A stretch of DNA of 64,000 nt from Patescibacteria group bacterium (GTDB lineage: Bacteria; Patescibacteriota; Minisyncoccia; Phycocordibacterales; UBA918): assembly GCA_038065355.1 (NCBI GenBank), contig JBBTRC010000007.1, forward strand, positions 42,333 to 106,332, given 5' to 3'. A program made the position numbers and the translations under genes. Positions 11,113 through 39,859 of the stretch are shown piece after piece (position 1 is the stretch's first letter; each line of letters opens with the position of its first letter). The notes below the pieces were generated by a model that did not search any database, was not told where the DNA came from, and was given only the letters and a program-made list of their open reading frames with translations.

Positions 11113-13005
11113 TTACACAATCCGCTCGGGATTCACTTCTATCTTTATGTAAGGAGGAAGGGTTTTGATGCGTTCCAGTAGAGTTTGATAGGTTGCTTTG
11201 TCATCGGTCTTTAGTCGTAAGAGTGCGTGGGCGAGGGTTTTTTGCGGCGTTGAATTGGGGTTGGTATAAAATTGAGACTCGCCAGACTTAAGGCTGTTTT
11301 TTACCAGTTTACCCACTTCATTCGCGGCGGCCTCCACCCCCGACCATGAGAGCAGAATGAAAGTGGCGTACGGTGGGTAGTGCAACATACGGCGGAGTGA
11401 GATTTCGTCATCATAAAAACGTTCGAGTGCGCCACGCGTGGCATAGGTAAGGAGGGCGTCGGTTTCACTTCGTGTTTGTATCAAGACCTCTTTGGCGGTA
11501 AATTCTCGCAGACGAAGTAATAGTCGAAAAAGAGATTCGTCGGCGCGCCAGGTCGGAATCGAGCGCGTGGCGTCGAGGGACACAACCGCACTCATCTCGA
11601 CACCTCGGCTCAAAAAAGGTAGCGCAATCTGCGTACCGATAAGCACCCCGGATTTTTTGGCAAAAAAATCGTCGGCAATTTTCTTCGCGCGTTTGCCGGT
11701 CGGAGCGGTCAGGTGGTCGATGATAAACGCGTCACTGTCCGGCATTTTTTCTTGCCACTCATCATAAACGTGCTGTACCCCCACACCGCGTTCTCGCAAG
11801 CGCCACGAACCGCACTCGCTGCAGACATCAGCCGCCCGAACTTTTGTGCCCGAGGTGTTTGATACGAACCAGCGTTCTTCTTTATCTCCAGTTCGAGTTC
11901 GAATCAGAGAGTAGGGAGTATTAGAGTCAGGGCAACGAAAGATGTGGCCGCAGTCGATGCAGGCAACGACCGGCGCGAGGCCACTGCGAGCCGCATACAA
12001 AAAGACGTGGCCACGCGCCTCCAGCGTCCGTGTCGCACTCCGTAGCAACTCCGGCGAAAATAGCTGAAACGGGCAGTCGGGTTTTGGTTTGTCTTTCTGT
12101 TTGACGATAGTTAAAGGGGCGGTAAAGGCCAGGCGTTTCACTTCTTCTCCAAGCGTCGTGTACCGCTCGCTTCGCCGGTGCACTTCGTCTTCGGTGCGCG
12201 GGACGGTGTCGCCGAGAATAATACTGCGGCCGGAAACAGCTGCATACGCGATGAGCGCGTCGCGATGGTCGAGGTAGGGACGTTGTCTCGTTTTATAATG
12301 GGGACTGGCGGACTGCTCGACAATGATGCTGAGCAAGTCGATTCGTTCGACGTACGCGTAGGCTGGCGTTGTAATAATGAGTTTGGCCAAGGTTTCGTCT
12401 TCAAGTTTGGCAAATGCATCATCACGTTGGCGCTTGGTGTGGGATGGTGAAATAACGACGAGACGTTCTTCGATACCTTGTCGAAGTTCCTCAACTATAT
12501 AATCGATTTCCACCGCCGTTGGTACCACCAGCAACACCGAACCGCGATGAGCGAAGGTACTCCTAATATGACTTTTGTACGCCAGAATGCGTTCGTCAAA
12601 CCGTCCCGTCAAAATCTGCGGCGTGCTGTCTTCAGTGTGCAGGATTGGGTTTACGACTGGATACGAACGCGCACCCTTGCGCACGTCCGGCGGCAAGAGT
12701 GTGTATATGATAGAACCAACCGTCGCCGGATAGAGCAGAACCAAGCGCGCGGCGGTATCGCGTACGGTTTTGGGCAGCACGGTGGGTTTGTCTTGGTTGG
12801 GCAGTTTGCGTAAAGAAAAGGTGGCCGCTTTGAGCGCCGTTTTTGTACTGCTCACCGGCTTGCTGTCGAGTACGATAGCAGCCTGATTTTTGCCGCGTAT
12901 CGGCACTTGAATAAAGCTCCCGAGCTCGTAGTTGCTACTTGAGAAATAGGAAAGTGATTCAAGCTGGGTGCCACGAATGAGAGGAATGACATGAATCACG
13001 AACAT
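11113..13005 (-). CDS. priA: Primosomal protein N' (PriA) homolog with degenerate Walker A/B
   Basis: N-terminal 3'-DNA-binding domain and central Cys cluster CIDCGH...CPDSNT...CSECGS. Collinear with E. coli PriA, but GxGKT is replaced by TGRFDER and DEEH by VEQS. Confidence 0.75.
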   Translation of the reverse strand: MFVIHVIPLIRGTQLESLSYFSSSNYELGSFIQVPIRGKNQAAIVLDSKPVSSTKTALKAATFSLRKLPNQDKPTVLPKTVRDTAARLVLLYPATVGSIIYTLLPPDVRKGARSYPVVNPILHTEDSTPQILTGRFDERILAYKSHIRSTFAHRGSVLLVVPTAVEIDYIVEELRQGIEERLVVISPSHTKRQRDDAFAKLEDETLAKLIITTPAYAYVERIDLLSIIVEQSASPHYKTRQRPYLDHRDALIAYAAVSGRSIILGDTVPRTEDEVHRRSERYTTLGEEVKRLAFTAPLTIVKQKDKPKPDCPFQLFSPELLRSATRTLEARGHVFLYAARSGLAPVVACIDCGHIFRCPDSNTPYSLIRTRTGDKEERWFVSNTSGTKVRAADVCSECGSWRLRERGVGVQHVYDEWQEKMPDSDAFIIDHLTAPTGKRAKKIADDFFAKKSGVLIGTQIALPFLSRGVEMSAVVSLDATRSIPTWRADESLFRLLLRLREFTAKEVLIQTRSETDALLTYATRGALERFYDDEISLRRMLHYPPYATFILLSWSGVEAAANEVGKLVKNSLKSGESQFYTNPNSTPQKTLAHALLRLKTDDKATYQTLLERIKTLPPYIKIEVNPERIV

Positions 13006-13148: not shown

Positions 13149-14648
13149 CTAAAACTCGTCTAGGTAGGCGATTTTGGCGCCGAGCGAAGCGAGGCGCTCG
13201 ACCAGCTTTTCGTAGCCGCGGTTAATGCTGTAGATGTTGCGCAACACCGAAGTGCCGGAAGCGCCAAGCATGGCGATCAAAAGAATAGTCGCTGGCCGGA
13301 GCGCCGGCGGACAGATCAGCTCGGTGGCACGAAGTTTCGAAGGGCCGGTAATGTAGATACGGTGGGGGTCAGCTAGGACGGTCTCGGCGCCGAGTTTGTC
13401 GAGCTCGGTAAAATAGATGGCCCGTTTATCGTACATCCAGTCGTGAATCAAAGTTTGACCGGCTGCTTGAGTAGCGATGACGGCAAAAAATGGCAGGTTA
13501 TCAGCATTGATGCCGGGGTAAGGGCGCGAGTGGATTTTATCCGCCGCCGCGGTGAGTTTTGATGGCTTGGTAGTGATGTCAACCAATTTCACTTGACCAT
13601 TGGCGCCGAGGTATGGCTTTGACATGGTGTACTTGAAACCCATCTTTTTTAACGTGAGGAGTTCTAGTTCAAGAAATTCAATCGGACAGCGGGTAATGGT
13701 GATCGAAGAATTAGTCACGATGGCCGCGGTCAAAAAGAACATGCTGTCGGTCGGGTCTTCAGCCAAAGTGTACTCGATGTCTTTTTTAATCTCATCAACT
13801 CCGGTGACGGTGAGTGTGGTGGTACCGACGCCGTCAATCTGCACACCAAGCTCACGCAGGAACACGCACAGCTCCTGCACCATGTAGTTGGCTGAAGCGT
13901 ACTTAATGACAGTAGTGCCGGGGAAGCGGGCGGCGGCCATAAGCACGTTTTCGGTCACGGTGTCGCCCGATTCATAGAGTATGATTTCTTGGGGTTGTTT
14001 TTTCTTGACACTCACCTCGTAGGTGTCGTTGGTGGTTTTGATATCGACACCAAATTCTTCAAGTGCATAGAAATGCGGTCGCACCGTGCGGCTACCGAGC
14101 TTGCAGCCGCCCGACTGCGGTAACGAAAATGTTTTGAGGTGGTGGATGAGCGGCCCGATAAACATGACGATGCTGCGGGTGCGTTTGGCGGATTCGGTGT
14201 TGATGCGTGCTAGGTTAAATGTCCGTGGTGGTGTGATTGAGACAGAGCTTTTGTCCCACTCTACTCGTACGCCGATACTCTGGAGCACCTCAATCAGACG
14301 ATGCACTTCTTCGATACGCGGCATTTTATGAAGTCTCGTCGTGCCGCGATTTAAAAGAGACGCACACAGGAGGCCGACTGCGCCGTTTTTTGATGAATTT
14401 GTTTCGATGGCACCCGTCAGCGTCTGGCCGCCGTCGACACGTACGCTTACGGTACCAGGCGAGAGGGTAATGAGGTTTTTGCCGAGCGCTTTGCCGATAC
14501 GGCGGAGCATGTCGGCACTCACATTTTGCCGGCCCGACTCAATGCGGGCGACCGCGCTCTGGGTAGTTTTAATTTTTTTGGCGAGGGCGGCCTGCGTTAT
14601 CCCAAGTGTTTCTCGCACGTCCGCGATGCGGTTTCCTATGTGTGACAT
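13149..14648 (-). CDS. murA: UDP-N-acetylglucosamine 1-carboxyvinyltransferase (MurA) with fused N-terminal XRE-family HTH domain
   Basis: N-terminus LGITQAALAKKIKTTQSAVARIESGRQNVSADMLRRIGKAL is a classic Cro/C1 HTH. The body has MurA motifs SGGCKLGSRTVRPHF (active-site Cys loop) and a C-terminal RGYEKLVERLASLGAKI. Start at MSHIGNR. Confidence 0.8.
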   Translation of the reverse strand: MSHIGNRIADVRETLGITQAALAKKIKTTQSAVARIESGRQNVSADMLRRIGKALGKNLITLSPGTVSVRVDGGQTLTGAIETNSSKNGAVGLLCASLLNRGTTRLHKMPRIEEVHRLIEVLQSIGVRVEWDKSSVSITPPRTFNLARINTESAKRTRSIVMFIGPLIHHLKTFSLPQSGGCKLGSRTVRPHFYALEEFGVDIKTTNDTYEVSVKKKQPQEIILYESGDTVTENVLMAAARFPGTTVIKYASANYMVQELCVFLRELGVQIDGVGTTTLTVTGVDEIKKDIEYTLAEDPTDSMFFLTAAIVTNSSITITRCPIEFLELELLTLKKMGFKYTMSKPYLGANGQVKLVDITTKPSKLTAAADKIHSRPYPGINADNLPFFAVIATQAAGQTLIHDWMYDKRAIYFTELDKLGAETVLADPHRIYITGPSKLRATELICPPALRPATILLIAMLGASGTSVLRNIYSINRGYEKLVERLASLGAKIAYLDEF

Positions 14649-14656
14649 GAGCAATA

Positions 14657-14676
14657 GCATAGCATATGCGCTATGC
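14657..14676. promoter_or_regulatory. Inverted repeat GCATAGC-n6-GCTATGC (contains palindrome GCATATGC), a candidate operator 9-28 nt upstream of the HTH-MurA start
   Basis: 7-bp perfect arms, overlapping 8-bp palindrome. Position and the fused HTH suggest autoregulation. Confidence 0.35.
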
Positions 14677-14697
14677 GTGGAAGAAACTGTGAAATAC

Positions 14698-14726
14698 TTG
14701 ACAATTAACCTTGAGTGTGATATTAT
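14698..14726 (+). promoter_or_regulatory. Strong sigma-70-like promoter TTGACA-17-TGnTATTAT (extended -10)
   Basis: Consensus -35, 17-nt spacer, TGA-TATTAT extended -10. Confidence 0.55.
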
Positions 14727-14751
14727 GAAGAGAGTCAACAAGAGGTGCGAC

Positions 14752-14907
14752 ATGAAGATTATTTTTAAAGTTCTGCGCGGTATCTGCAGGTTCTTGATTC
14801 TGGCCCTGACGCAGGACCCTTACGCCGAAGTTCGGCGTATAGGTCTGCTCGGCATGCTCGAGGAGCGTCGTCAGAATCCGGCCGCTTTCGCCCATGAGGG
14901 ATGCTAG
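14752..14907 (+). CDS. Small protein (51 aa) in a self-contained promoter/SD/terminator module. Alternatively a ~230-nt sRNA
   Basis: SD AAGAGGTG 4 nt before the ATG. Sequence MKIIFKVLRGICRFLILALTQDPYAEVRRIGLLGMLEERRQNPAAFAHEGC. Terminator follows at 14931. Confidence 0.35.
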   Translation: MKIIFKVLRGICRFLILALTQDPYAEVRRIGLLGMLEERRQNPAAFAHEGC

Positions 14908-14930
14908 ACCGCCGTGTTGACACAATAGGT

Positions 14931-14968
14931 GCCCGAACTTCCGTAAGGAGGTTCGGGCACTATTTTTT
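14931..14968 (+). terminator. Rho-independent terminator
   Basis: Stem GCCCGAAC(TTCC)/(GGAG)GTTCGGGC followed by ACTATTTTTT. Confidence 0.6.
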
Positions 14969-15017: not shown

Positions 15018-16031
15018 ATGTTTGGTAGCTTTACTCCTAAAGTCGGAATTGATCTTGGTACTACCAATATTTTGGTGTTTGTTCCTGGTCAAGGCATTGT
15101 ATTAAATGAACCGTCGGTGGTGGCCATCTCCGACAACAATCAAGTGCTGGCGGTCGGCACGGAAGCGAAGCTTATGATTGGCCGCACCCCTGACACTATA
15201 CGTGCGTACCGCCCCATGCGTGACGGCGTGATTGCCGACTACCGCGTGACGGAGACAATGCTCCGTTACTTTCTCCGCAAATCCATGAGCAAATACAGTC
15301 TGTTCAAACCAGACGTGATGGTGTCGGTGCCGGCCGGTGTAACCTCGACCGAACGGCGGGCGGTCATCGAAGCGGCCATCAAAGCCGGCGCTAAAAACGC
15401 CTACGTGGTGAAAGAGCCGATTTTGGCCGCCATTGGCGCCGGTGTCCCCATTTATGAGCCGCAGGGACACATGATCGTCGACATCGGCGGGGGTACGATT
15501 GACGTGGCGGTGATTTCGCTTGGCGGCATTGTCGCCGCCAACTCGGTGAAGTGTGCGGGCAACCGCATTGATGCGGCCATCATCGACTACATCAAAAAAT
15601 CCCGCAACCTCTCAGTCGGCGAAAAGACCGCTGAAGAAATCAAAATCCAGATTGGTTCGGCCTTGCCGGTTGAGGAAGAATTAACGATGGACATAAAAGG
15701 ACGGGACGTGTTGTCCGGTTTGCCGCGCACCACCGAACTGAAGACAAATGAAGTAGTGCGCGCAATCAGCCGCGAACTGCGAGAAATGGTCAAAGCCATC
15801 AAAGACGTTTTTCAAGAAACGCCGCCCGAGCTCGCCGCCGACATCATCGATGGCGGCATCATCATGACCGGCGGCACATCGCAACTGCGCAATTTTCCCG
15901 AGCTCATTCGCCGCCGCACCGGCGTGAAAGCGGTGGTGGCTGATCAGGCGCTTTTTTGTGTCGCCAAAGGTACCGGCATTGCGCTTGAACACCTTGATGT
16001 CTACAAACGCGCCGTGTTCGCCAAGAAGTAA
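15018..16031 (+). CDS. mreB: Rod shape-determining protein MreB (solitary paralog, Mbl/MreBH-like position)
   Basis: VGIDLGTTNILVFV...NEPSVVAI, phosphate-1/2 and adenosine motifs of actin-fold MreB, 337 aa. Confidence 0.85.
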   Translation: MFGSFTPKVGIDLGTTNILVFVPGQGIVLNEPSVVAISDNNQVLAVGTEAKLMIGRTPDTIRAYRPMRDGVIADYRVTETMLRYFLRKSMSKYSLFKPDVMVSVPAGVTSTERRAVIEAAIKAGAKNAYVVKEPILAAIGAGVPIYEPQGHMIVDIGGGTIDVAVISLGGIVAANSVKCAGNRIDAAIIDYIKKSRNLSVGEKTAEEIKIQIGSALPVEEELTMDIKGRDVLSGLPRTTELKTNEVVRAISRELREMVKAIKDVFQETPPELAADIIDGGIIMTGGTSQLRNFPELIRRRTGVKAVVADQALFCVAKGTGIALEHLDVYKRAVFAKK

Positions 16032-16125
16032 AAATTTTTCCACAAAAGACTCCGCAGTATCTTTAAGTTTAAAAGGGGATTAGGTCGCATCCTTGTCTCT
16101 GTTTCGCGGTACTATAATAGGTACT

Positions 16126-18888
16126 ATGGAAGGTGTTCCTGCGAAATTTTCTAATCCTCAAGAGGAAATAAACTACTTGCGCGAACGCATCGCCGTGCGC
16201 GAACGGGAACTGCTTGATCGTACACCAGAAATAGACACTGCCGACCGAGAGACCATTGGCCGCCAAGAGCTAAAAGAATATACCAGCTTCACTCCTAAGA
16301 TGGTGCTCAAACCTGACTATGAGCTTACCCATGAGGCACTGACGCGGTCTGTTGAACACATCAAAACCGCATCTGATCCAGCCGAGGAGATTTTGGCTAT
16401 TGCGTACGAAAAGGGAATCAGAAATGCCTTGAGTATTCTCGAAAAGACAGAGAACGCGTTTGTGGTCGACGAAGTGCATCGGCAACTAATAGAGCACCTG
16501 AGGGCCGGCGCAACCCTCGCCAACCTCAAAGAAGGAGTGCCGCCGTGGCATATACTCCACATGACTCTCTACCAAGTGACCTTGCCGGCCGAAGTGGCTC
16601 CGGGCGGACGAGAATACGATCTGGCCGAACTCGCCGGCATGATGCAGCAGCTGTTTGCTGGACTGCGCACTATAGGCTCGGTCAAGGAACACAATCACTT
16701 CACGATTGAGATTGCAGTCGCCAACAACAGCAGTGACATCGTTTTTTACGTCGCGGTGCCCAATGAGTTTACGTCGCTGTTTGAGAAACAAACACACTCA
16801 CTTTTCCCGTCGGCCGTCTTAGAGATACAACCGCACGATTACAACATCTATATAAAAAATGGCAGCACGCACATCGCCGAGATAGCTCTGAAAAAACATC
16901 CAATCTACCTGCTCAAAACTTTTGATACATTCACTTCCGATCCACTGGTAGTGATCTTAAATGCACTGTCGAAAATAGATCACCATGGCACCGGTGCGGC
17001 TGTGCAGTTTGTGGTTCGTCATCCGCGGCGGCAGTATCGCAAGGTGTTTGAACAGATTATCAAGTCCATCGAAAAGGGTACTAAACCACAAGAAGCGATT
17101 GCACAAAGCACCATGGCTGGTGAGTTCGTGGCGACGGTCGGTGAATTGTTCGGGAGCGGCAAGAAAAAAGCCAGTGACGAAGAAGAACCAGTTGTTGTCG
17201 ACACCGCCACGCTTGAGCAGTTTAAACGCAAAATAAAAACTGACCTGGTCGAGGTAAACATCCGCATTGTCGCGTCTTCGGAAAGTGAAGCCAAAGCGCA
17301 ACAAATTTTGACCGAGATCGAGTCAGCGTTTAACCAGTTTGACTCCACCGAAGGCAATCAGATTGTTTTTAAGCAACTTAAAGGCGGCGCGCTTCTCCGG
17401 GCAGAGCAAGCATTTTCGTTTCGGGAACTGACTTCAAACAATCTTTTTCCTCTTTCGCTTGAAGAGCTGTCAACGCTTATTCACTTCCCCGGTAACGGTA
17501 TCCACTCGACGCCGGAGTTCAAACAGTCCTACGCCAAAACCGCCCCGGCGCAAAATGCCATGCCGACCGAGGGCACATTGCTCGGCATCAACAACCATAG
17601 AGGCGTCAAACGGCCCATCTACATCACCGAAGCAGACCGTCTGCGGCATTTCTACATCATCGGCCAGACCGGTACTGGTAAGTCAGTTTTTCTCAAAAAT
17701 CTCATTATCCAAGATATCCAATCCGGCGCGGGTGTCTGTATGATCGATCCTCACGGCACCGATATTGAGGACGTGCTCGGAGCGGTGCCAAAGGAGCGAG
17801 AGCAAGATGTGATTTACTTTGATCCATCCCGCCAAGACCGCGTGCTAGGACTCAACATGCTTGAGTATGACGCGTCCAAACCCGAGCAGAAGACGTTTGT
17901 GGTCAATGAGCTTTTCTCAATCTTTCAGAAGCTCTACGGAGCCAACCCAGAGTCGATGGGTCCGATGTTTGAGCAGTACTTCCGCAATGCCACCTTGCTC
18001 GTCCTCGAAGACCCTGACAGCGGCAACACCCTCATGGATATTTCTCGCGTGCTCGCTGACGCAAAGTACCGCCGACAAAAGCTTGAGAAAGCCACCAACC
18101 CGGTCGTGGTGCAGTTTTGGCGGGAGATTGCGGCCAAAGCCGGCGGGGAAGCGACGCTCGAAAACATTGTGCCGTACATTGTGTCGAAGTTCGACGTATT
18201 CACCGCCAATGACTACATGCGTCCGATTATTGGCCAGCAAAAGAGCGCCTTTAACTTCCGGCAAGTCATGGACGAACGAAAGATTTTGCTCATCAATCTC
18301 TCGAAAGGCCGTCTCGGAGAGATCAACGCCAATCTTATCGGTATGATTGTGGTGGGAAAATTTTTAATGGCTGCGCTCTCGCGTGTCGACGATCCGACCA
18401 AGAGCTTCCCGCCGTTCTATCTTCACATTGATGAATTTCAAAATATTTCGACTAATTCAATAGCGTCCATTTTGTCAGAGGCTCGCAAATACAAACTCGG
18501 GTTGACAGTCGTTCATCAGTTCATTGCGCAATTGGATCCGGTCATCAAAGATGCAGTGTTTGGTAACGTCGGATCAATTGCCGCCTTTCGGGTGGGCAAT
18601 GACGACGCAGTGGCGCTCGAGTCACAGTTTGCCCCAACCTTCACCGCCGCAGAACTCATGAATATTCCAAATTACAACGCGTATCTGCGCGTGCTCGCCA
18701 ACGGTACCCCGACCCTCCCGTTCAGCATCGAGACACTGCCGCTTGAAGATACGGATCACAAACGAGTCGCTGAGCTTATAGAACAAAGCGGCCTTCGCTA
18801 CGGACGACCAAAGCACGACATCGAAGCTGAAATACAAGCACGTTACCAAAGACCAACACCGCCGGTACCGAATGCCCTACGTATGTAG
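16126..18888 (+). CDS. Large soluble P-loop ATPase of the FtsK-HerA superfamily with VirD4/TraG (T4SS coupling protein)-like C-terminal half and a novel ~480-aa N-terminal domain
   Basis: Walker A HFYIIGQTGTGKSV at about residue 520, Walker B FYLHIDEFQN, then ARKYKLGLTVVHQFIAQL (R...G....Q..QL as in VirD4/TraG/TrwB). No TM segments. ATG at 16126 lies 8 nt after a TATAAT (possible leaderless start). The ORF maximum begins at a TTG at 16093. Confidence 0.6.
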   Translation: MEGVPAKFSNPQEEINYLRERIAVRERELLDRTPEIDTADRETIGRQELKEYTSFTPKMVLKPDYELTHEALTRSVEHIKTASDPAEEILAIAYEKGIRNALSILEKTENAFVVDEVHRQLIEHLRAGATLANLKEGVPPWHILHMTLYQVTLPAEVAPGGREYDLAELAGMMQQLFAGLRTIGSVKEHNHFTIEIAVANNSSDIVFYVAVPNEFTSLFEKQTHSLFPSAVLEIQPHDYNIYIKNGSTHIAEIALKKHPIYLLKTFDTFTSDPLVVILNALSKIDHHGTGAAVQFVVRHPRRQYRKVFEQIIKSIEKGTKPQEAIAQSTMAGEFVATVGELFGSGKKKASDEEEPVVVDTATLEQFKRKIKTDLVEVNIRIVASSESEAKAQQILTEIESAFNQFDSTEGNQIVFKQLKGGALLRAEQAFSFRELTSNNLFPLSLEELSTLIHFPGNGIHSTPEFKQSYAKTAPAQNAMPTEGTLLGINNHRGVKRPIYITEADRLRHFYIIGQTGTGKSVFLKNLIIQDIQSGAGVCMIDPHGTDIEDVLGAVPKEREQDVIYFDPSRQDRVLGLNMLEYDASKPEQKTFVVNELFSIFQKLYGANPESMGPMFEQYFRNATLLVLEDPDSGNTLMDISRVLADAKYRRQKLEKATNPVVVQFWREIAAKAGGEATLENIVPYIVSKFDVFTANDYMRPIIGQQKSAFNFRQVMDERKILLINLSKGRLGEINANLIGMIVVGKFLMAALSRVDDPTKSFPPFYLHIDEFQNISTNSIASILSEARKYKLGLTVVHQFIAQLDPVIKDAVFGNVGSIAAFRVGNDDAVALESQFAPTFTAAELMNIPNYNAYLRVLANGTPTLPFSIETLPLEDTDHKRVAELIEQSGLRYGRPKHDIEAEIQARYQRPTPPVPNALRM

Positions 18889-18897
18889 CATATATAT

Positions 18898-20136
18898 ATG
18901 AGCGCCGACAAGCAAAGCACCGAATACCAGAACGTCACCATCGACACCGTGTCCGGACTTGATCTTTTTCTTACCCATATACGGGATGTATACCAAACAG
19001 GACTTCCGAAAAAGTCTGCCAGTTTGAAAAAACAACCCCACAGATCAGTTGCCGACCGGAATCACAAATTTTTACGTACGTACAAAGAGCTTCAGCATGG
19101 CATTATGGCGTGCAAGAAGTCACTTCTCGCCGGCAAGGAAGTGACGACTGCCGAAGCAGGCAAACTGCAAACATTGTACGATCAGTTGCTATCCCTGCGC
19201 GACTCATCTTTACACGAAACGGCCGCTAAAAAAACTCCAGCGGTAGTTCCCGTAGCTTCCACAGCAAAAAATGAAACACACGCCCCATCGTCCGCATTCG
19301 CCACTGACGCGCTAGAAAAGTCTCAATCTACAGTGCCTACCCACTCACTTAGAGAAAAGAAAATACACCCTCTGGCCAGACGTATGTTTCAGAAAGAGGT
19401 GCGAGAAACTAAGCGTCCCTTAGAGACTGCTCGGCTTACAGCAACACCAACACCTTCGCCAGCGACATCAGATAAAAAGAAGAAAGAAGACACGACTCAC
19501 GACAAAGACAAGCAGGTGCCGACTTCGACGAATCCTTCTCGTAGTGCGTCGCCGCCAACACCGGTCACTTTCACACCACAGTCGGCGAGAGTTCGCTCGT
19601 CAGCCCAACCCGCGCCGCCACCAAGACCCACATTCACTCCAACCTCGACCAAAAAAGCCAAAAATCCGTCGGCCACGGCCGCTGTGCGGCCACTTGAATC
19701 CGGCATTGTACAGCCTGACCCAATCCATGAAAAACGATCACTGACGGCCATCTATTTGAATAGGCCTGAATATCGGCAATTTATCGCCGACAACTACTCA
19801 TCGCCAGCTGGATTTGAAAAAATTATTGACAGCACGATCACCGCCATCGAGCGCACACTTACTGACCCAATCGAACGGTGGTTGGGTGAGGTACACGCCA
19901 GTCCGTTTGCTTATTTGGAAAGTATGACACTCTCGGATATTACCGAGTTTAATCAGCAACCGTATGAATTCATCAAGTCAGTACTGGCGAAAGAAAATAT
20001 AAAATACGAAGGCTACGTGCTGTGGGTAGATTTGATACCGGAGATGTTGCGTATCGTTGACGCGCATACCGACATAACCTTCGGCGAATTGTTCGCACGG
20101 TATTTAATTGAAAACGAAATGTTACGGAGTGCGTAG
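18898..20136 (+). CDS. Hypothetical protein with folded N- and C-terminal domains and a long Pro/Thr/Ser-rich disordered centre
   Basis: 412 aa. Central part ...TATPTPSPATSDKKKK...SASPPTPVTFTPQ...PAPPPRPTFTPTSTKK... is low complexity. Tightly spaced after the ATPase. Confidence 0.45.
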   Translation: MSADKQSTEYQNVTIDTVSGLDLFLTHIRDVYQTGLPKKSASLKKQPHRSVADRNHKFLRTYKELQHGIMACKKSLLAGKEVTTAEAGKLQTLYDQLLSLRDSSLHETAAKKTPAVVPVASTAKNETHAPSSAFATDALEKSQSTVPTHSLREKKIHPLARRMFQKEVRETKRPLETARLTATPTPSPATSDKKKKEDTTHDKDKQVPTSTNPSRSASPPTPVTFTPQSARVRSSAQPAPPPRPTFTPTSTKKAKNPSATAAVRPLESGIVQPDPIHEKRSLTAIYLNRPEYRQFIADNYSSPAGFEKIIDSTITAIERTLTDPIERWLGEVHASPFAYLESMTLSDITEFNQQPYEFIKSVLAKENIKYEGYVLWVDLIPEMLRIVDAHTDITFGELFARYLIENEMLRSA

Positions 20137-20201
20137 TCGTAATTCACATCTGTGCGTAACTGTTTTGATTCATCAATTGCAAAAAGTGTTATGATAGGTG
20201 T

Positions 20202-21914
20202 ATGTCCAGCGGAGGTTCTTTTAGTGTAAGTGCCACACGTTCATTTGATCTCGAGTCGCAATCGGGAATTGCGCACGTGCTGACCTCAATTCGTGCCAGC
20301 GATCTTTCAAACTCACAAAAAAACGAGTTGCGTGACATGGTCTTTCTTTATGTGAACGGCGGGCATGATCCGGCCGTGGAGCTTATTCTGGAGAAGAAAC
20401 TCGCCAGCTATGAAGTCGCTCCAGCTCCGAAGAAAGTAACGCCAGGAAGCGTCGTTCGCGCCAACCCGATTGGCGGTGTGCGTCCTGCGCCACGTTCTTT
20501 TGCAATCAAAGGCACCTATCAAGCACCACCACCCGTTGTATCGGCGCCGTCAGCACCTCATGTTGCTGAAGCACCAAAAGCACCAGAGCCGAAGCTCACC
20601 CCCATTCCGGTAGCAACACCCGTTTCACCGCCGCCTCGCTTGCCCGAACCGGAGGCCAAGCCGCTAGTAGAGCCACCAGCGCGCGCCGTGCCGGCCGCTC
20701 CTCCAAAAGTGGCTAGTGTCGCAGTAGCGCCGAACGCTACGCCAAATACGCCAAGCGCCTCAAGCGAGACGCAGAATCAATACTTAGAACGAATCCGCGA
20801 GATCAAATCTATCGTAAACGAAAAGGTCGGCAACCCGGTTAATTTAGTTGATATCAATAATGAAGTGGGGCGTGAGTACATGGGCGCCTTGCTTGATGCG
20901 ATGAAAAAGTTGCACAGCGGTACGTCGGCGGTTTCGGCGATGCGGCGTCTCGAGACTTCATTTATCGCAGTCCAAAGAGCCATTGCCGATCACGAAAAAC
21001 ATCCTACTCATAGTGAGCCGCCAAAGGTTATCATTGCAAAAACAGCCCCGCCGGTTTCACCAAAAATAGAAGAGAAACCAAAAGCACCAGAGCCGAAGCT
21101 CACCCCCATTCCGGTAGCAACACCCGTTTCACCGCCGCCTCGCCCGCCCGAACCGGAGGCCAAGCCGCCAATCGAGCCATCACAACCACGACAATCACCG
21201 CCCACTCCTCCCACTACTGCGGTAAGAGAACAGGTGTCGGCAAATTCCTCATACGTAAAAAGTCAAAAATTACGCATTGAAACACATGATCGTGATGACA
21301 GCGCGCTTACCATTAAGCGACCGGAGCCACCTATGAGAACCCCTGAGCCAGCAGTAGAAGTGAGGCAACCAGCAGCTCCGACTCCGCCACCGATTGCGCA
21401 CACTACACCGATCTCCTCTGACGCTGATAAGCGCTGGGCGGACACGGCTGGTGCGGAATCAGCCACTGCTCCAAGAAGCTCGCCACCAATTACAAAACTC
21501 GACTCGCTGGCAGATCTAAAAAAACCTCGCCGTCCCGACGAATTGCCGACCTCCGCCTCTTTGCAGACTTCCACTGTGAAAGGTGACTCACTCTTCACAA
21601 AAGAAGTCACCGACGGTCTCAACCAGCTCCTGCTCGAGTGGCCAATTTTCAAAAAAAGCGGACTGTTTGGCACCGGTCCGAAAGGGTACGAGCATCCGCT
21701 TTTTAAAAAAATTGCCAATTTGCCGATTCCACTTCTGTTAGCAGGACGTTTTGAGGGCGCGACCCAAGAGATAAAACAAAGCATCACCGACTATATGAAC
21801 GGGTGGCGCTACGAACAGGCAATCATCTACGAGCAAGGAGAAACGTTTGAGCACTACTTACGGCGCGTCATTCGGCACATACTCGATTTGCAAATTAAAA
21901 AAGCCCAGCCATAA
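20202..21914 (+). CDS. Hypothetical proline-rich protein containing a duplicated APEPKLTPIPVATPVSPPPR(L/P)PEPEAKP module
   Basis: 570 aa. Two near-identical 95-nt DNA repeats inside the CDS. Structured N- and C-terminal domains. Confidence 0.45.
   Translation: MSSGGSFSVSATRSFDLESQSGIAHVLTSIRASDLSNSQKNELRDMVFLYVNGGHDPAVELILEKKLASYEVAPAPKKVTPGSVVRANPIGGVRPAPRSFAIKGTYQAPPPVVSAPSAPHVAEAPKAPEPKLTPIPVATPVSPPPRLPEPEAKPLVEPPARAVPAAPPKVASVAVAPNATPNTPSASSETQNQYLERIREIKSIVNEKVGNPVNLVDINNEVGREYMGALLDAMKKLHSGTSAVSAMRRLETSFIAVQRAIADHEKHPTHSEPPKVIIAKTAPPVSPKIEEKPKAPEPKLTPIPVATPVSPPPRPPEPEAKPPIEPSQPRQSPPTPPTTAVREQVSANSSYVKSQKLRIETHDRDDSALTIKRPEPPMRTPEPAVEVRQPAAPTPPPIAHTTPISSDADKRWADTAGAESATAPRSSPPITKLDSLADLKKPRRPDELPTSASLQTSTVKGDSLFTKEVTDGLNQLLLEWPIFKKSGLFGTGPKGYEHPLFKKIANLPIPLLLAGRFEGATQEIKQSITDYMNGWRYEQAIIYEQGETFEHYLRRVIRHILDLQIKKAQP
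20573..20667 (+). repeat. Intragenic direct repeat copy A (95 nt)
   Basis: 93 of 95 nt identical to 21077..21171. Confidence 0.85.
21077..21171 (+). repeat. Intragenic direct repeat copy B (95 nt)
   Basis: 93 of 95 nt identical to 20573..20667. Confidence 0.85.
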
Positions 21915-21921
21915 TAACCTG

Positions 21922-22536
21922 ATGTTGTCGCATCATGCTATTTTGTCGCGCTACGTTGATGTGGAGGATTTTGTTGATATTTCGGTACCGCCGACGACCG
22001 AGTATGTCCGCTTTGATATAGAAAAGTTTGGTATTGATGACGCGCGACGGCTGGTACAGGAAGCCTACCGCCGTCCAACGGAAGGGCATACGGAGCGTCT
22101 TTTGTGCACAGTGTCGAGCGCGGTGACCGTGGAGGCGCAACACGCGCTTTTGAAGTTGCTCGAAGAACCGCCGGTGACGACGAAGTTTGTTTTTGTACTA
22201 CCGGCTGGCGCATCACTTCTCCCGACGCTCCTCTCACGCTTCCACGAACAAGCACCCACGCTGGCGGCGGCTGATACACCGGAGTTTGAAGAATTTTTGC
22301 ACGCCTCATACAGAGAGCGGTTGGCAGTGATTGAAACAAAACTCAAAGCCAAGGACGACAACTGGCAAGCGGCGATAGACAGAGGTCTGCACGCCTACGT
22401 GGAAGGAGCAAGGGGTACGCTTCCGCTTGCAGTACTACAGGAACTACAACTCTTCTTATCTTTTTATCGGAAACGCGGCGCTTCAAATAAAATGCTCCTT
22501 GAGCACCTCTCGATTACTCTGCCGACTCGAAGTTAG
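21922..22536 (+). CDS. holB: Minimal DNA polymerase III delta' subunit-like (clamp-loader AAA+ family, no P-loop)
   Basis: LLKLLEEPP box and LLSRFH (SRC-type) motif. Only ~205 aa. No GxxGxGK(S/T). Confidence 0.55.
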   Translation: MLSHHAILSRYVDVEDFVDISVPPTTEYVRFDIEKFGIDDARRLVQEAYRRPTEGHTERLLCTVSSAVTVEAQHALLKLLEEPPVTTKFVFVLPAGASLLPTLLSRFHEQAPTLAAADTPEFEEFLHASYRERLAVIETKLKAKDDNWQAAIDRGLHAYVEGARGTLPLAVLQELQLFLSFYRKRGASNKMLLEHLSITLPTRS

Positions 22537-25501: not shown

Positions 25502-26572
25502 ATGAACGTATTTACGCGACAACTAAACGCGCTTCTTTCGGCTGTTTCTACCGATATGGCGATCGACTTGGGAACGGCCAACACGCTCGTGTATGTCAAA
25601 GGCAAAGGAATAGTACTCAACGAGCCAACGATTGTCGCTATCAATAAAAAAACCGGCCAACTAGTGGCGGTTGGCAACGATGCAAAGACTATGCTTGGCC
25701 GTACGCCCGCACACATCGAGGTCATTCGCCCGTTGGTTGACGGGGTGATTTCGGACTTCGAAGTCACCGAAGAAATGCTCGCGTACTTGATCGCCAAAGT
25801 GCGCGGTGGTGTCCGTTCAATTGTAGCCCCCCGCATGTTGATTGGTGTGCCGTCTGGGATCACTAACGTTGAAATGCGTGCCGCGCGCGATGCGGCAAAA
25901 AATGCCGGCGCACGCGATGTTTTTTTGATTGAAGAGCCGATGGCTGCCGCCATCGGCGCTAAGTTGCCCGTCGGTAAGCCAATTGGCAGTATGATTATCG
26001 ACATCGGAGGCGGTACCACCGACATCGCCATCATCTCGCTTAATGGCATTGTAGTGTCACGTAACTTGCGCGTCGCGGGCGACCACCTCAATGCGGCGAT
26101 CACTTCATACATTCGCGACCAGTTTAAAATCCACGTTGGCGAAAAAACCGCCGAAGACGCCAAAATCGCTCTGGCTTCAATCGCAGTTACCGAGGGAAAT
26201 AAGGAGCTCGTCGCGCGTGGCCGCGACGTGGTGACCGGCCTGCCGCGCGAGGTCATCATCACCGACGCAGATGTAAGGGACGCAGTCTCGGGACAAGTCG
26301 AAACAATCGTTGAGACGGTGCGAAGCGTGCTTGAAGAAACCCCACCCGAAGTTCTCTCTGACATTATGCAGCGCGGCATCCATCTCTCGGGCGGGGGAGC
26401 ACTGATACCTGGCCTGACCGAGCTCCTTGAACACGAACTCCAGGTGCCGGTCGTGGTGGTCCCTGATCCTCTCCGCGCGGTCGTGCGAGGAGCTGGCATT
26501 GTGGTCGAAAATTTAGACGCCTACGCAGAAATACTTTTAGATCATGAAGGTACGTTCACCACGCAAATTTAA
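25502..26572 (+). CDS. mreB: Rod shape-determining protein MreB (operonic copy)
   Basis: MAIDLGTANTLVYV...NEPTIVAI. Followed by mreC, mreD and mrdA. Confidence 0.9.
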   Translation: MNVFTRQLNALLSAVSTDMAIDLGTANTLVYVKGKGIVLNEPTIVAINKKTGQLVAVGNDAKTMLGRTPAHIEVIRPLVDGVISDFEVTEEMLAYLIAKVRGGVRSIVAPRMLIGVPSGITNVEMRAARDAAKNAGARDVFLIEEPMAAAIGAKLPVGKPIGSMIIDIGGGTTDIAIISLNGIVVSRNLRVAGDHLNAAITSYIRDQFKIHVGEKTAEDAKIALASIAVTEGNKELVARGRDVVTGLPREVIITDADVRDAVSGQVETIVETVRSVLEETPPEVLSDIMQRGIHLSGGGALIPGLTELLEHELQVPVVVVPDPLRAVVRGAGIVVENLDAYAEILLDHEGTFTTQI

Positions 26573-37788: not shown

Positions 37789-38082
37789 TTAGTGACCCTG
37801 GGGCGATAAGGCCTTGCACGGCAGCGTAGTCGCTACCCCCGCCACTGCTGCTTCAATGTACGGTTTTTTGGCCAAAGGGGCAGCCAAGACGATGCCCGAC
37901 TCGTTACTCTCGGTGAGGTAAATTCTAGAGCCGATCTTTGGCACTTCGTAGCCGCACTCCTCTACGAAGTGTTCACGCAGTCGTTGAGTGTAGTTTTCGT
38001 CAGCTCTTTCAAAGAGCCAAAACATGGCCGGCAGAAGCAATAAAACGGCCACTACACATATCAGTTTCACTGTTGAAGACAT
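37789..38082 (-). CDS. Hypothetical small exported protein
   Basis: 97 aa, N-terminal hydrophobic segment VKLICVVAVLLLLPAMFWLF. Lower GC than surroundings. Confidence 0.4.
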   Translation of the reverse strand: MSSTVKLICVVAVLLLLPAMFWLFERADENYTQRLREHFVEECGYEVPKIGSRIYLTESNESGIVLAAPLAKKPYIEAAVAGVATTLPCKALSPQGH

Positions 38083-38232
38083 GCACCCTCCTCCTTGCTG
38101 TTGGGTTTAAAAGAACGTTTGCACGTATAATACTACAAAGTAGTCTAAAAGTCAAGTTTCCTCTATCCAGTTTATTAGTACCCGAAAGTCGATCCAGCGG
38201 CTCGCGCATACGAAAAGGGGCCTTTTAAGGTT

Positions 38233-38568
38233 TTAAACTTCTAACTCAAACTTCCAGTTCATCTTCACTACCGAGATGTTAAACGGAACGGTAATATTGT
38301 TGTGTTGTTTAAATGGAACAATTTGATCTCGTAGCTTAGCGAGTATTCTTTCCATGTCTTGTTCGGAAACTTCAGAAAATGTAGCGTATACATAAATTTC
38401 AATTGGTGCTGCATTTACCGTCACTTGGTTCGGAGACGCAAAAACAGAAACCTCAGCGGGAGTATATCCCGTTGCTTCTGCCGCAAATTTCTGGATGGCG
38501 GCAGCAACTTTTTGTATTTCTTCCTGTGAAAGTTTGCTCTTTTCGTAGTCAATTCTTACTATGGGCAT
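38233..38568 (-). CDS. Hypothetical protein, possibly tautomerase-superfamily-like (Pro1 after Met)
   Basis: MPIVRIDYEKSKLSQEEIQKVAAAIQKF resembles the 4-OT/MIF-like N-terminal beta-alpha-beta. 111 aa. Low-GC islet. Confidence 0.35.
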   Translation of the reverse strand: MPIVRIDYEKSKLSQEEIQKVAAAIQKFAAEATGYTPAEVSVFASPNQVTVNAAPIEIYVYATFSEVSEQDMERILAKLRDQIVPFKQHNNITVPFNISVVKMNWKFELEV

Positions 38569-38707
38569 GAGTTCATTATATCAAATGTTCCAACATTCCA
38601 TTTTGATGACTCAAATCTGCTGCAATAATCGATCTACACGCTACGTTGCTCGATCCCAGCAAGGGTATTGCTACAAATATTTTGGATATGTTGGCGAATT
38701 AAAGTCA

Positions 38708-39160: not shown

Positions 39161-39192
39161 AAAAACAGTCTCGAATGAGACTGTTTTTGTGT
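39157..39192. terminator. Bidirectional terminator, perfect 16-bp palindrome
   Basis: ACACAAAAACAGTCTC-GAAT-GAGACTGTTTTTGTGT, followed by a second hairpin GCTAGTTCG...CGAACTAGC at 39194-39227. Confidence 0.7.
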
Positions 39193-39258
39193 GCTAGTTC
39201 GTTCCTTCTTGAGTGCTCGAACTAGCTCTCTAGTCGGTGAGCGTTCAGCAGATAGAAA

Positions 39259-39780: not shown

Positions 39781-39784
39781 GAAT

Positions 39785-39859
39785 TGGTGACCCTACCGGG
39801 AATCGAACCCGGGTTTCCAGGATGAGAACCTGGCGTCCTAGCCGCTAGACGATAGGGCC
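39785..39859 (-). tRNA. tRNA-Glu (anticodon CUC)
   Basis: Reverse complement folds as a cloverleaf: acceptor GGCCCTA/TAGGGTC, D-stem GTCT/GGAC, anticodon stem CCAGG/CCTGG with loop TTCTCAT, T-arm CCGGG-TTCGATT-CCCGG, 3' ACCA encoded. Confidence 0.85.

What the first reader, a model, noticed from the sequence alone, without database searches (positions are those of the whole stretch)
16126..21914. Soluble VirD4/TraG-like ATPase with a novel N-terminal half, co-transcribed with two proline-rich disordered proteins inside a core housekeeping array
The 920-aa protein carries Walker A (GQTGTGKS), Walker B (HIDEFQN) and the R...G....Q..QL segment of T4SS coupling-protein/FtsK-HerA ATPases. It has no TM helices, and its first ~480 aa match nothing I recognise. 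Two tightly spaced genes follow (412 and 570 aa). Both are dominated by Pro/Thr/Ser low-complexity linkers with folded termini. The trio sits between a solitary mreB paralog and holB-frr-rseP-proS-mreBCD-mrdA, all co-directional, which argues for a conserved core function (DNA translocation/segregation, cell envelope or competence-like machinery) rather than a mobile conjugation module. A TATAAT lies 8 nt before the ATPase ATG, suggesting a leaderless transcript. This is the best candidate in the window for an undescribed system.
Basis: partly seen in the sequence, partly recalled or inferred. Interest (0 to 1): 0.6.

Follow-up and report, generated by a model that had tools for sequence, protein, structure and literature searches.

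The report
Core soluble coupling-type ATPase module
A relative of the ATPases that feed DNA into bacterial conjugation machines, lacking their membrane anchor, is a highly conserved chromosomal gene in the ultra-small Parcubacteria, next to floppy proline-rich partner proteins; its job is untested but most likely involves moving DNA.

Summary
Three co-directional genes (920, 412 and 570 aa) lie between a solitary mreB and holB. The 920-aa protein has intact Walker A/B motifs and no TM helix. The other two are Pro/Thr/Ser-rich with folded ends.

The protein is a vertically inherited core gene of Parcubacteria. More than 537 species representatives carry it, at 56-70% identity across the clade that shares this synteny, about as conserved as frr. 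It always sits in housekeeping arrays and never next to T4SS genes.

Its closest outside relatives are TM-less 'DUF87' ATPases paired with Replic_Relax proteins. These occupy the coupling-protein slot of Bacillus conjugation-type plasmids and also occur in Bacillus phages (SPO1 gp27.4/27.3, phage G gp156).

The mreB linkage and ORF3 are clade-specific. A small N-terminal module (a separate gene in other lineages), an ORF2-type protein and a DUF5663-like protein travel with the ATPase more widely. The leaderless -10 box is real but is a genome-wide habit.

Most likely this is a domesticated coupling-type DNA motor. The function is untested.

The parts
16113..16118 (+). TATAAT -10 box, 7 nt before the ATPase ATG (leaderless-type promoter)
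   Evidence: Read from the sequence. A hexamer matching TATAAT at 5/6 or better lies 6-9 nt before the ATG in 46 of 74 orthologous loci, and an SD-like motif appears in only 6 of 74. The same arrangement precedes 16 ORFs in the window against 0.35 in shuffles.
16126..16554 (+). ATPase aa 1-143: helical N-terminal extension. It is a separate small gene in most other lineages.
   Evidence: Helices only in the AF2 model. A subclass of about 800 aa matches the query only from aa ~144. That subclass has a 100-180-aa gene directly upstream in at least 48 of 78 loci. That small protein aligns to aa 81-126 (hhalign probability 87%, E 4e-6).
16555..17565 (+). ATPase aa ~144-480: DUF8128 (PF26449) alpha/beta domain, function unknown
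17566..18888 (+). ATPase aa ~481-920: VirB4/TrwB/HerA-type P-loop motor with an all-alpha insertion (aa ~587-716). Walker A is at nt 17662-17685 and Walker B at nt 18424-18444.
18898..20136 (+). ORF2 (412 aa): Thr/Ser/Pro-rich protein with a weakly conserved N-terminus and a conserved C-terminal domain of about 130 aa; 9 nt after the ATPase stop
   Evidence: No Pfam, NCBIfam, PADLOC or PHROG match. The C-domain is 28-48% identical in L001, L003 and L005, while total length there ranges from 635 to 1117 aa. Across loci the length range is 204-1404 aa, and the gene is sometimes absent. A C-domain HMM also finds the protein that follows the ATPase in rearranged loci L067 and L073. Some orthologues have one central TM-like segment; the window copy has none.
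20190..20195 (+). TATGAT -10-like box, 6 nt before the ORF3 ATG
   Evidence: Read from the sequence and listed in the window-wide scan.
20202..21914 (+). ORF3 (570 aa): three small helical domains (nt 20244-20411, 20763-20999, 21600-21905) joined by two Pro-rich disordered linkers
   Evidence: AF2 model. There are 516 homologues, all 'hypothetical' with no Pfam domain. Median identity across the clade is 74% for the C-domain and 63% for the middle domain. ORF3 is present downstream of the ATPase in 35 of 40 syntenic loci and in 0 of 19 rearranged loci. Foldseek against PDB gave nothing significant.
20573..20678 (+). 106-nt direct repeat, copy 1 (copy 2 is at 21077-21182, 94% identical); it encodes KAPEPKLTPIPVATPVSPPPR in both linkers of ORF3
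15018..16031 (+). mreB1: solitary MreB paralogue, a clade-specific neighbour, with its own TATGAT 8 nt before the ATG
   Evidence: Pfam MreB_Mbl 2.6e-130 and NCBIfam MreB. It is 43% identical to mreB2 at 25502-26572. It lies within 2.5 kb upstream of the ATPase in 45 of 48 loci of the clade, at median 84% identity, and in 0 of 23 loci outside it.
21922..22536 (+). holB (DNA polymerase III delta'), next gene, with its own promoter TTGCAA-16-CATAAT ending 6 nt before the ATG and overlapping the ORF3 stop codon
   Evidence: holB follows ORF3 in 32 of 40 loci of the clade.

Best explanation
The 920-aa gene encodes the Parcubacteria (Paceibacteria-type Patescibacteria) core member of a TM-less branch of the VirD4/VirB4/HerA ATPases.

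Shown: it has three parts. These are a helical N-terminal module (aa 1-143, a separate upstream gene in most other lineages), the DUF8128 alpha/beta domain (aa ~144-480), and a catalytically intact P-loop motor with an all-alpha insertion (aa ~481-875).

Shown: its nearest relatives outside Patescibacteria are soluble 'DUF87' ATPases that pair with Replic_Relax proteins. They occupy the coupling-protein slot of Bacillus conjugation-type plasmids and also occur in Bacillus phages.

Inferred: an ancestral plasmid or phage coupling-type DNA motor was fixed in the chromosome. It now works as a cytoplasmic, probably hexameric, ATP-driven motor acting on DNA. Here DUF8128 and the N-terminal module take the place of the membrane anchor, as the docking or substrate-recognition part.

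Inferred: the accessory proteins (ORF2-type, DUF5663-like and, in this clade, ORF3) act as long flexible tethers or adaptors. ORF2 orthologues in some genomes carry a TM-like segment.

Not resolved: which membrane or cell-cycle machine the motor serves (T4SS, ComEC/type IV pilus DNA uptake, or the divisome).

For: Core status: more than 537 GTDB species representatives carry a relative, and the best 80 are all Patescibacteria. Identity is 56-70% across the syntenic clade, against frr 55-70%, holB 32-45% and priA 22-36%. About 170 loci were examined, all in housekeeping arrays and none with VirB4 or other T4SS genes.

Outside relatives: the Bacillus plasmid protein matches at hhalign probability 100%, E 6.6e-44, over aa 188-877. 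It lies directly upstream of Replic_Relax, TcpE, a VirB4 (AAA_10) and a lytic transglycosylase, and is the only other large ATPase on the 27.5-kb plasmid. SPO1 gp27.4 is followed by gp27.3, a Replic_Relax protein (2.9e-12). phrog_5156 matches at 2.5e-79 over aa 187-904. Phage G gp156 aligns structurally over 825 columns. All of these relatives lack TM segments.

DNA-related neighbours in Patescibacteria: holB follows in 32 of 40 loci and dnaX is nearby in 19 of 83. priA is upstream. RecJ, RNase H and ComEC flank the gene in L059, L067 and L073. A Xer-like recombinase is nearby in 7 of 83 loci.

Module: the N-terminal module shows gene fission/fusion. The DUF5663-like small protein lies next to the ATPase in three different synteny contexts. 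An ORF2-type protein follows the ATPase in rearranged loci.

Literature: T4CP homologues were found in 2,918 of 3,035 Patescibacteria genomes, only 148 of them near virB4, and the authors say exaptation 'cannot be ruled out' (PMC12102498).
Against: There is no experimental evidence for any member of the family, and no paper mentions DUF8128 or DUF5663.

The superfamily also contains motors that handle proteins or drive assembly (VirB4, EccC), so the fold does not prove a DNA substrate.

Housekeeping arrays also hold unrelated genes (frr, proS, ndk, map), so the DNA-related neighbours are weak evidence in reduced, syntenic genomes.

All curated T4CP models score below their cut-offs.

The role of DUF8128 is unknown and its fold has no PDB counterpart.

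The window ORF2 has no TM segment while some orthologues do, so the tether idea is not uniform.

I could not show that the T4CP hits counted in PMC12102498 are this family.
Confidence: 0.45

Rival explanations
1. It is the missing coupling protein of the patescibacterial type IV secretion system and handles proteins, not DNA. The signal-peptide-less, extended ORF2 and ORF3 proteins are its substrates or substrate adaptors and are delivered to the cell surface or to the host cell.
For: The ATPase is of the T4CP/VirB4 type. The Saccharibacteria T4SS is essential, lacks a recognisable coupling protein and relaxase, and may export proteins (PMC10633639). T4CP genes are often encoded away from virB4 (PMC12102498). 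ORF2 and ORF3 have no signal peptide or TM segment but have conserved C-terminal domains. Some ORF2 orthologues carry a TM-like segment followed by a region that looks LysM-like by eye, which suggests surface exposure.
Against: No T4SS gene lies near the ATPase in about 170 loci. The T4CP homologue of S. epibionticum was reported as non-essential while the T4SS genes are essential (PMC12102498). ORF3 is confined to one clade and ORF2 is sometimes absent. Pfam did not confirm the LysM-like motif. The closest relatives pair with Replic_Relax, a DNA-processing family, even in non-conjugative phages.
Confidence: 0.2
2. It is a soluble chromosome-segregation or cell-division DNA pump, analogous to B. 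subtilis SftA or to the FtsK motor. It is recruited to the MreB cytoskeleton or divisome through its N-terminal domains and the Pro-rich linker proteins, which would then be the functional counterpart of the long FtsK linker.
For: A highly conserved mreB paralogue lies immediately upstream in 45 of 48 loci of this clade. FtsQ-like POTRA genes are nearby in 8 of 83 loci of the ~800-aa subclass and a Xer-like recombinase in 7 of 83. A PilM-family actin-like protein follows the ATPase in L093. Universal core conservation fits a cell-cycle role. SftA is a precedent for a TM-less translocase (own knowledge).
Confidence: 0.15
3. It is the ATPase of an anti-phage defence system of the HerA, DptH or MADS type.
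Against: The gene is a core gene with 56-70% identity and fixed housekeeping synteny across many species, which is the opposite of the patchy, fast-evolving pattern of defence genes. No Sir2, nuclease, methyltransferase or Dpt/Dnd partner lies nearby. ORF2 and ORF3 have no PADLOC match.
Confidence: 0.03
4. It is part of a mobile conjugative or integrative element that happens to sit here.
For: There is sequence kinship to TraD/VirD4/CD1115 models and to plasmid and phage proteins.
Against: There is no relaxase, VirB4, integrase or tRNA target next to it in the window. GC content of 0.50-0.52 matches the flanks. The same position between the same housekeeping genes recurs in 45 or more species.
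Confidence: 0.02

Closest known systems
Type IV coupling proteins (VirD4 / TrwB / TraD / TraG; Pfam PF02534, PF10412, PF12696)
   Different: It has no N-terminal TM anchor and carries about 480 extra N-terminal residues (helical module plus DUF8128). It scores below every curated cut-off. It is never linked to a relaxase or MPF genes in Patescibacteria. It is a vertically inherited core gene.
TM-less DUF8128+DUF87 ATPases paired with Replic_Relax in Bacillus plasmids (e.g. NZ_CP154917.1, WP_345805471.1) and Bacillus phages (SPO1 gp27.4/gp27.3, phage G gp156, phrog_5156)
   Same: They share the two-domain architecture over about 690 residues (hhalign E 6.6e-44; Foldseek 825 columns). They are soluble. 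On the plasmids they sit in the coupling-protein slot upstream of TcpE and VirB4.
   Different: Identity is only 20-26%. They lack the N-terminal helical module. The plasmid protein has a long acidic C-terminal tail. The partner is Replic_Relax, not ORF2, DUF5663 or ORF3. They are on mobile elements. They are themselves uncharacterised.
VirB4 / TraC-type T4SS ATPases
   Different: Profile comparison with a genuine plasmid VirB4 (AAA_10) finds nothing beyond a weak C-terminal stretch. Full-length TrwK aligns over only 358 residues. Patescibacteria have a separate true VirB4 near the replication origin (PMC12102498).
HerA / DptH-type translocases (DUF87, PF01935)
   Different: No NurA, Sir2 or Dpt partner is present. 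The N-terminal domain is alpha/beta and is not an evident HAS barrel. The distribution is that of a core gene, not a patchy one.
FtsK / SpoIIIE, and soluble SftA
   Same: They belong to the same superfamily. SftA shows that a TM-less translocase can be recruited by an N-terminal domain (own knowledge). FtsK also uses a long Pro/Gln-rich linker.

Membership tests
Type IV coupling protein (VirD4/TrwB/TraD) | N-terminal transmembrane anchor | tested here: not met
   The highest 19-residue hydropathy mean is 1.77, inside the ATPase core (aa 733), and nothing is hydrophobic in the first 480 residues.
Type IV coupling protein (VirD4/TrwB/TraD) | TrwB-type nucleotide-binding domain with Walker A/B | tested here: met
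Type IV coupling protein (VirD4/TrwB/TraD) | All-alpha domain inserted between Walker A and Walker B | tested here: met
   The AF2 model has only helices in aa 587-716, between the two motifs. Precomputed faint or weak PF10412 TrwB_AAD_bind hits occur in homologues. This is a model-based inference.
Type IV coupling protein (VirD4/TrwB/TraD) | Score above the curated family thresholds | tested here: not met
   PF02534 20.0 against 20.1 bits, PF10412 18.8 against 20.5, PF12696 19.4 against 22. NCBIfam TraD 43.9 against 366, CD1115 31 against 250.
Type IV coupling protein (VirD4/TrwB/TraD) | Genomic linkage to a relaxase and mating-pair-formation genes | tested here: not met
   None in the 64-kb window or in about 170 related loci. 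The feature is met only for the distant Bacillus plasmid relatives.
DUF8128 (Pfam PF26449) | Match to the Pfam model over the N-terminal half | tested here: met
   The precomputed annotation of the identical protein P0001 and of all listed homologues is PF26449. The model is missing from my Pfam copy, so I did not rescore it.
VirB4 | VirB4-type N-terminal domain and AAA_10 / CagE_TrbE_VirB signature | tested here: not met
   No such Pfam hit. hhalign against a genuine AAA_10 VirB4 gives probability 1%. Full-length TrwK aligns over the motor half only.
VirB4 | Encoded beside VirB3, VirB6 and VirB8 homologues | tested here: not met
FtsK/SpoIIIE | FtsK_SpoIIIE motor domain above threshold, and a gamma (winged-helix) domain | tested here: not met
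HerA | DUF87 central domain | tested here: met
HerA | N-terminal HAS barrel and a NurA (or defence effector) partner gene | tested here: not met
Anti-phage defence ATPases (MADS mad8, DptH) | System partners nearby and a patchy, island-like distribution | tested here: not met
   Only the ATPase domain matches mad8 (4.1e-14). ORF2 and ORF3 have no PADLOC match. The distribution is core and syntenic.

The most novel reading that the evidence does not exclude
Parcubacteria have turned a plasmid or phage coupling ATPase into a core cytoplasmic DNA motor. Together with its detachable N-terminal module, a DUF5663-like protein and long disordered tethers (ORF2-type, ORF3), it would form an undescribed envelope-linked DNA-handling machine. 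One possibility is the unidentified cytoplasmic motor for ComEC/type IV pilus-dependent import of foreign DNA in these bacteria, which cannot make their own nucleotides. Another is a dedicated segregation pump tied to a specialised MreB.
Probability: 0.15. Interest if true: 0.8.

Novelty: new variant of a known kind. Interest (0 to 1): 0.55.

Why it matters
Patescibacteria make up a large share of bacterial diversity, and most of their conserved lineage-specific genes have no known role.

This ATPase is about as conserved as ribosome recycling factor across the clade. It is present in hundreds of species and derives from conjugation or phage-type machinery, yet it is never next to secretion genes.

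A 2025 survey noted near-universal 'orphan' T4CP homologues in the phylum and left their function open. This analysis gives that orphan class:
- a concrete architecture;
- a defined partner set;
- tractable relatives in Bacillus plasmids and phage SPO1, where genetics is easy.

If the protein is a DNA motor for uptake, transfer or segregation, it bears on how these epibionts acquire or partition DNA. If it handles proteins, it would be the missing coupling protein of an essential T4SS.

Tried and rejected
- Sequence search of PDB with two family profiles found only P-loop matches to TrwB and DotL, and nothing for the N-terminal half.
- Foldseek of the ORF3 model against PDB gave only non-significant helical-bundle hits. 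The afdb50 library was unavailable.
- ORF2 and ORF3 had no match in Pfam, NCBIfam, PADLOC or PHROGs.
- I tested whether ORF2 and ORF3 are paralogues. hhalign probabilities were at most 1.4%, so I rejected this.
- I tested whether the DUF5663-like small gene is present in the window. There is no hit in any of the six frames.
- An Rfam search for the strong hairpin upstream of mreB1 found nothing credible.
- Literature searches for DUF8128, DUF5663, Patescibacteria+DUF87, Patescibacteria+MreB+coupling protein and CPR+FtsK+MreB all returned zero papers.
- A cluster look-up to get taxonomy for distant representatives gave almost no names.
- I tried to map the window's relatives onto the T4CP table of PMC12102498. 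The relevant assemblies are not in the stored part of the supplement.
- The LysM-like motif seen by eye in tier-2 ORF2-type proteins was not confirmed by Pfam.
- The defence-system and mobile-element readings were considered and rejected on distribution and context.
Full report
**Observation.**

Homologues start M-x-E-G, which fixes the start at ATG 16126 rather than the upstream in-frame TTG.

Walker A (GQTGTGKS, aa 513-520), Walker B (HIDEFQN, aa 767-773) and the ARKYKLGLTVVHQFIAQL segment are present and invariant among close homologues. None of the three proteins has a TM-like segment. The only hydrophobic peak (1.77) lies inside the conserved ATPase core.

ORF3 is 14% proline. ORF2 is rich in Thr, Ser and Pro. 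The flanks are as described: a genuine MreB upstream, and holB, frr, rseP, proS, a second mreB, mreC and PBP2 downstream. GC content is uniform across the region. The window holds no T4SS gene, no integrase and no tRNA next to the locus.

**The ATPase.**

Curated libraries give only weak hits. DUF87 is above its cut-off. The T4CP models (T4SS-DNA_transf, TrwB_AAD_bind, TraG-D_C) and FtsK_SpoIIIE are below theirs, and the NCBIfam TraD/VirD4/CedD models are far below.

In the model the N-terminal half consists of a helical extension (aa 1-143) followed by two beta-alpha-beta-beta-alpha-beta-type units. A set of polar residues is invariant even in 35%-identical relatives: E195, Q294, K369, R433 and E447.

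**Distribution and conservation.**

The full-length protein is 66-73% identical in at least 120 protein clusters from Nomura-, Kaiser-, Pace- and other Parcubacteria. The best 80 are all Patescibacteria.

Many records titled 'uncultured Candidatus Saccharibacteria' share the same synteny and 60-70% identity, so those labels are probably generic. I could not establish presence outside Parcubacteria-type lineages.

The N-terminal half alone finds 831 clusters (at 50% identity) in 1.8 billion representatives.

In the 54 loci with at least 55% identity (tier 1), median identities to the window are:

| Protein | Median identity |
|---|---|
| mreB1 | 84% |
| ATPase | 66% |
| frr | 63% |
| holB | 38% |
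| murA | 36% |
| priA | 27% |

The ATPase is therefore among the most constrained proteins of the region.

**Synteny.**

In tier 1 the order is fmt-def-priA-(HTH-murA)-mreB1-ATPase-ORF2-(small ORF)-ORF3-holB-frr-rseP-proS-mreB2-mreC. Counts:

| Feature | Tier 1 | Tier 2 |
|---|---|---|
| mreB1 within 2.5 kb upstream | 45 of 48 | 0 of 23 |
| ORF3 C-domain downstream | 35 of 40 | 0 of 19 |
| holB downstream | 32 of 40 | 0 of 19 |

In the 26 loci at 47-53% identity (tier 2) the gene sits after genes I read by eye as rplO-secY-adk-map and before ndk and an MBL/beta-CASP gene.

A third set is the ~800-aa subclass, with 83 loci from metagenomes and long contigs. It shares the map/adk/ndk context, so these are orthologues. 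It also shows dnaX (19 loci), a PMT_2 glycosyltransferase (16), GtrA (13), an FtsQ-like POTRA protein (8), a Xer-like recombinase (7) and, once, a PilM-family gene followed by a small TM protein.

Three tier-2 loci read RecJ - ATPase - ORF2-type protein - small ORF - RNase H - ComEC. No locus contains VirB4 or other T4SS genes.

The gene is therefore a chromosomal core gene.

**The accessory genes.**

ORF3 is a distinct family of at least 516 proteins, all annotated as hypothetical. It has three small helical domains joined by two Pro-rich disordered linkers. The C-domain is up to 83% identical across the clade. Foldseek finds no significant structural relative.

ORF2 keeps a C-terminal domain of about 130 aa and a weaker N-terminal one. 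Its length ranges from 204 to 1404 aa, it is missing in several loci, and in some genomes it carries one central TM-like segment. An HMM of its C-domain also recognises the long protein that follows the ATPase in two rearranged tier-2 loci. ORF2 and ORF3 are not detectably paralogous.

A fourth component is absent from the window. It is a ~100-aa protein found between ORF2 and ORF3 in 13 tier-1 loci, after the ORF2-type protein in two tier-2 loci, and within two genes of the ATPase in 6 of 83 loci of the ~800-aa subclass. One of those members scores as Pfam DUF5663.

The ~800-aa subclass lacks the first ~140 residues. Instead it has a 100-180-aa gene abutting the ATPase upstream in at least 48 of 78 loci, and 32 of these cluster with the N-termini of longer ATPases. 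Its profile aligns co-linearly with residues 81-126 of the window protein (probability 87%, E 4e-6). This points to a fission/fusion relationship.

The widely conserved module is thus {N-terminal helical module, DUF8128-ATPase, DUF5663-like protein, ORF2-type protein}. ORF3 and mreB1 are additions specific to one clade.

**Relatives outside Patescibacteria.**

PHROGs family 5156 (function unknown) matches residues 187-904 at E 2.5e-79. tblastn finds 20-26%-identical proteins covering both domains in 43 phage records, nearly all Bacillus phages (phage G gp156, SPO1 gp27.4, CP-51, JL, Wes44, PBC1). It also finds them on Bacillus plasmids annotated 'DUF87 domain-containing protein'.

Profile comparison with the plasmid protein gives probability 100% and E 6.6e-44 over residues 188-877. 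The same profile does not recognise that plasmid's genuine VirB4. Phage G gp156 aligns structurally over its whole length. None of these relatives has a TM segment, and the plasmid protein ends in a long acidic tail.

On two plasmids (27.5 and 64.7 kb) the gene is the first of an operon: DUF87 ATPase - Replic_Relax - conjugal transfer proteins - TcpE - VirB4 (AAA_10) - large transfer protein - lytic transglycosylase. This is the coupling-protein slot of a Gram-positive conjugation module, with no other candidate T4CP on the smaller plasmid.

In phage SPO1, gp27.4 is followed by gp27.3, which is also a Replic_Relax protein (2.9e-12). In Wes44 the gene lies in the DNA-metabolism region.

So a soluble ATPase plus Replic_Relax pair is a mobile-element module. 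The patescibacterial gene is its chromosomal cousin, without the Replic_Relax partner.

**Transcription.**

The TATAAT box 7 nt before the ATG is real. In orthologous loci a hexamer matching at 5/6 or better lies 6-9 nt before the ATG in 46 of 74 cases, in both synteny tiers, and an SD-like motif appears in only 6.

The window contains 16 such boxes opening ORFs of at least 100 aa, against 0.35 in shuffles. They include those of priA, mreB1, the ATPase, ORF3 and mreB2. holB has a full TTGCAA-16-CATAAT promoter ending 6 nt before its ATG.

Leaderless-type starts are therefore a habit of this genome. The 'trio' probably comprises at least two transcription units, ATPase+ORF2 and ORF3. No + strand terminator-like site is listed between the mreB1 stop (16031) and position 20475; the only two inside the module lie within the ORF3 coding sequence (20475-20491 and 20825-20840).

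**Interpretation.**

The following are shown:
- family placement of the motor;
- intact catalytic motifs;
- solubility;
- core status;
- synteny patterns;
- the module components;
- the plasmid and phage relatives with their contexts.

The following is inferred. The protein is a domesticated coupling-type motor that acts on DNA. DUF8128 and the N-terminal module replace the membrane anchor as a docking or recognition device, and the disordered proteins act as tethers.

The DNA inference rests on four observations:
- the superfamily the motor belongs to;
- the Replic_Relax pairing in both conjugative and non-conjugative elements;
- the replication-module position in phages;
- recurrent but weak neighbourhood links to holB, dnaX, priA, recJ, rnhA, comEC and xer.

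Published work supports the setting. T4CP homologues occur in 2,918 of 3,035 Patescibacteria genomes, almost never near virB4, and exaptation is left open (PMC12102498). The Saccharibacteria T4SS lacks a recognisable coupling protein and relaxase (PMC10633639). I could not verify that those T4CP hits are this family.

The stored part of that paper's table lists both 't4cp1' (349) and FtsK/TcpA-like 't4cp2' (166) hits. This suggests a separate FtsK-type protein exists and weakens the idea that this protein replaces FtsK.

Rivals in order of weight:
- a protein-handling coupling ATPase for the essential T4SS, with ORF2 and ORF3 as substrates or adaptors;
- an SftA-like segregation or division pump tied to MreB or the divisome;
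- a defence ATPase or a mobile module, both poorly supported.

**Novelty.**

The kind is known: a VirD4/VirB4/HerA-branch ATPase. Its domains carry Pfam numbers. Its abundance in Patescibacteria as an 'orphan T4CP' has been noted. I found the following in no paper:
- the TM-less DUF8128 architecture as a core gene;
- its fission/fusion N-terminal module;
- the conserved partners (ORF2-type, DUF5663-like, ORF3);
- the kinship with the Bacillus plasmid and phage ATPase-Replic_Relax pair.

I class it as a new variant of a known kind, of moderate interest, with a minority chance of marking an undescribed DNA-handling machine.

Noticed in passing
window 13149-14753 (-): MurA carries an N-terminal XRE-type HTH domain (aa ~38-97; Pfam HTH_3 6.5e-13). 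The fusion is conserved in relatives (L001, L003, L005) and lies divergently next to mreB1. It is reminiscent of the MreB-binding HTH of RodZ. That is my speculation and is untested.
   Followed up: partly
window 14928-14961 (+): A strong hairpin (15-bp stem, 9 G-C pairs) followed by a T-run lies in the divergent murA-mreB1 intergenic region, about 57 nt upstream of the mreB1 ATG. There is no credible Rfam match. It could be a terminator of an unannotated small RNA or a regulatory element.
   Followed up: partly
whole window (e.g. 13005 -, 15018 +, 16126 +, 20202 +, 25502 +, 41905 -, 48011 +, 53190 +): Leaderless-type gene starts are common. There are 16 cases of a -10 hexamer 5-9 nt before an ATG opening an ORF of at least 100 aa, against 0.35 in shuffles. 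SD-like motifs are rare upstream of the ATPase orthologues.
   Followed up: partly
window 38001-40000: GC content drops to 0.42, against 0.48-0.57 elsewhere, next to the only tRNA gene (tRNA-Glu, 39785-39859, - strand). This may be an insertion or island.
   Followed up: no
window 20573-20678 and 21077-21182: A 106-nt direct repeat (94% identical) lies inside ORF3 and duplicates a Pro-rich linker segment. It suggests recent expansion or recombination within the linkers and fits their hypervariable length across species.
   Followed up: yes
window 11113-13005 (-): A 630-aa protein with no Pfam hit is a divergent PriA (TIGR00595 4.5e-44, below the curated cut-off). It is conserved next to def-fmt in relatives.
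   Followed up: yes
L059, L067, L073 (tier-2 loci): The gene order is RecJ - ATPase - ORF2-type protein (single TM-like segment, and a LysM-like motif seen by eye but not by Pfam) - DUF5663-like ORF - RNase H - ComEC. This is the only direct neighbourhood link between this ATPase and the DNA-uptake channel.
   Followed up: partly
L090 (phage SPO1) 4743-8280; L087/L089 (Bacillus plasmids): The soluble DUF8128-like ATPase is immediately followed by a Replic_Relax (PF13814) protein both in conjugation-type Bacillus plasmids and in the lytic phage SPO1 (gp27.4/gp27.3). I found no paper describing this two-gene module.
   Followed up: partly
L009, L011, L015, L025, L033 and other GTDB loci: Many MAG records titled 'uncultured Candidatus Saccharibacteria bacterium' carry the same Parcubacteria-type synteny, with ATPases 60-70% identical to Nomura- and Kaiserbacteria. 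The organism names in these records are probably generic or wrong.
   Followed up: no
window 27726-29444 and 33655-35376 (+); 43698-45407 (+): There are two PBP2-type transpeptidases in one window, and a PIF1-family helicase with a C-terminal HTH_40 domain.
   Followed up: no
L093 12539-14596: In one locus of the ~800-aa subclass the ATPase is followed by a 500-aa PilM-family protein with a C-terminal TM segment (by eye, possibly a PilM-PilN fusion) and by a small 179-aa TM protein. This is a possible link to the type IV pilus machinery, seen only once.
   Followed up: no
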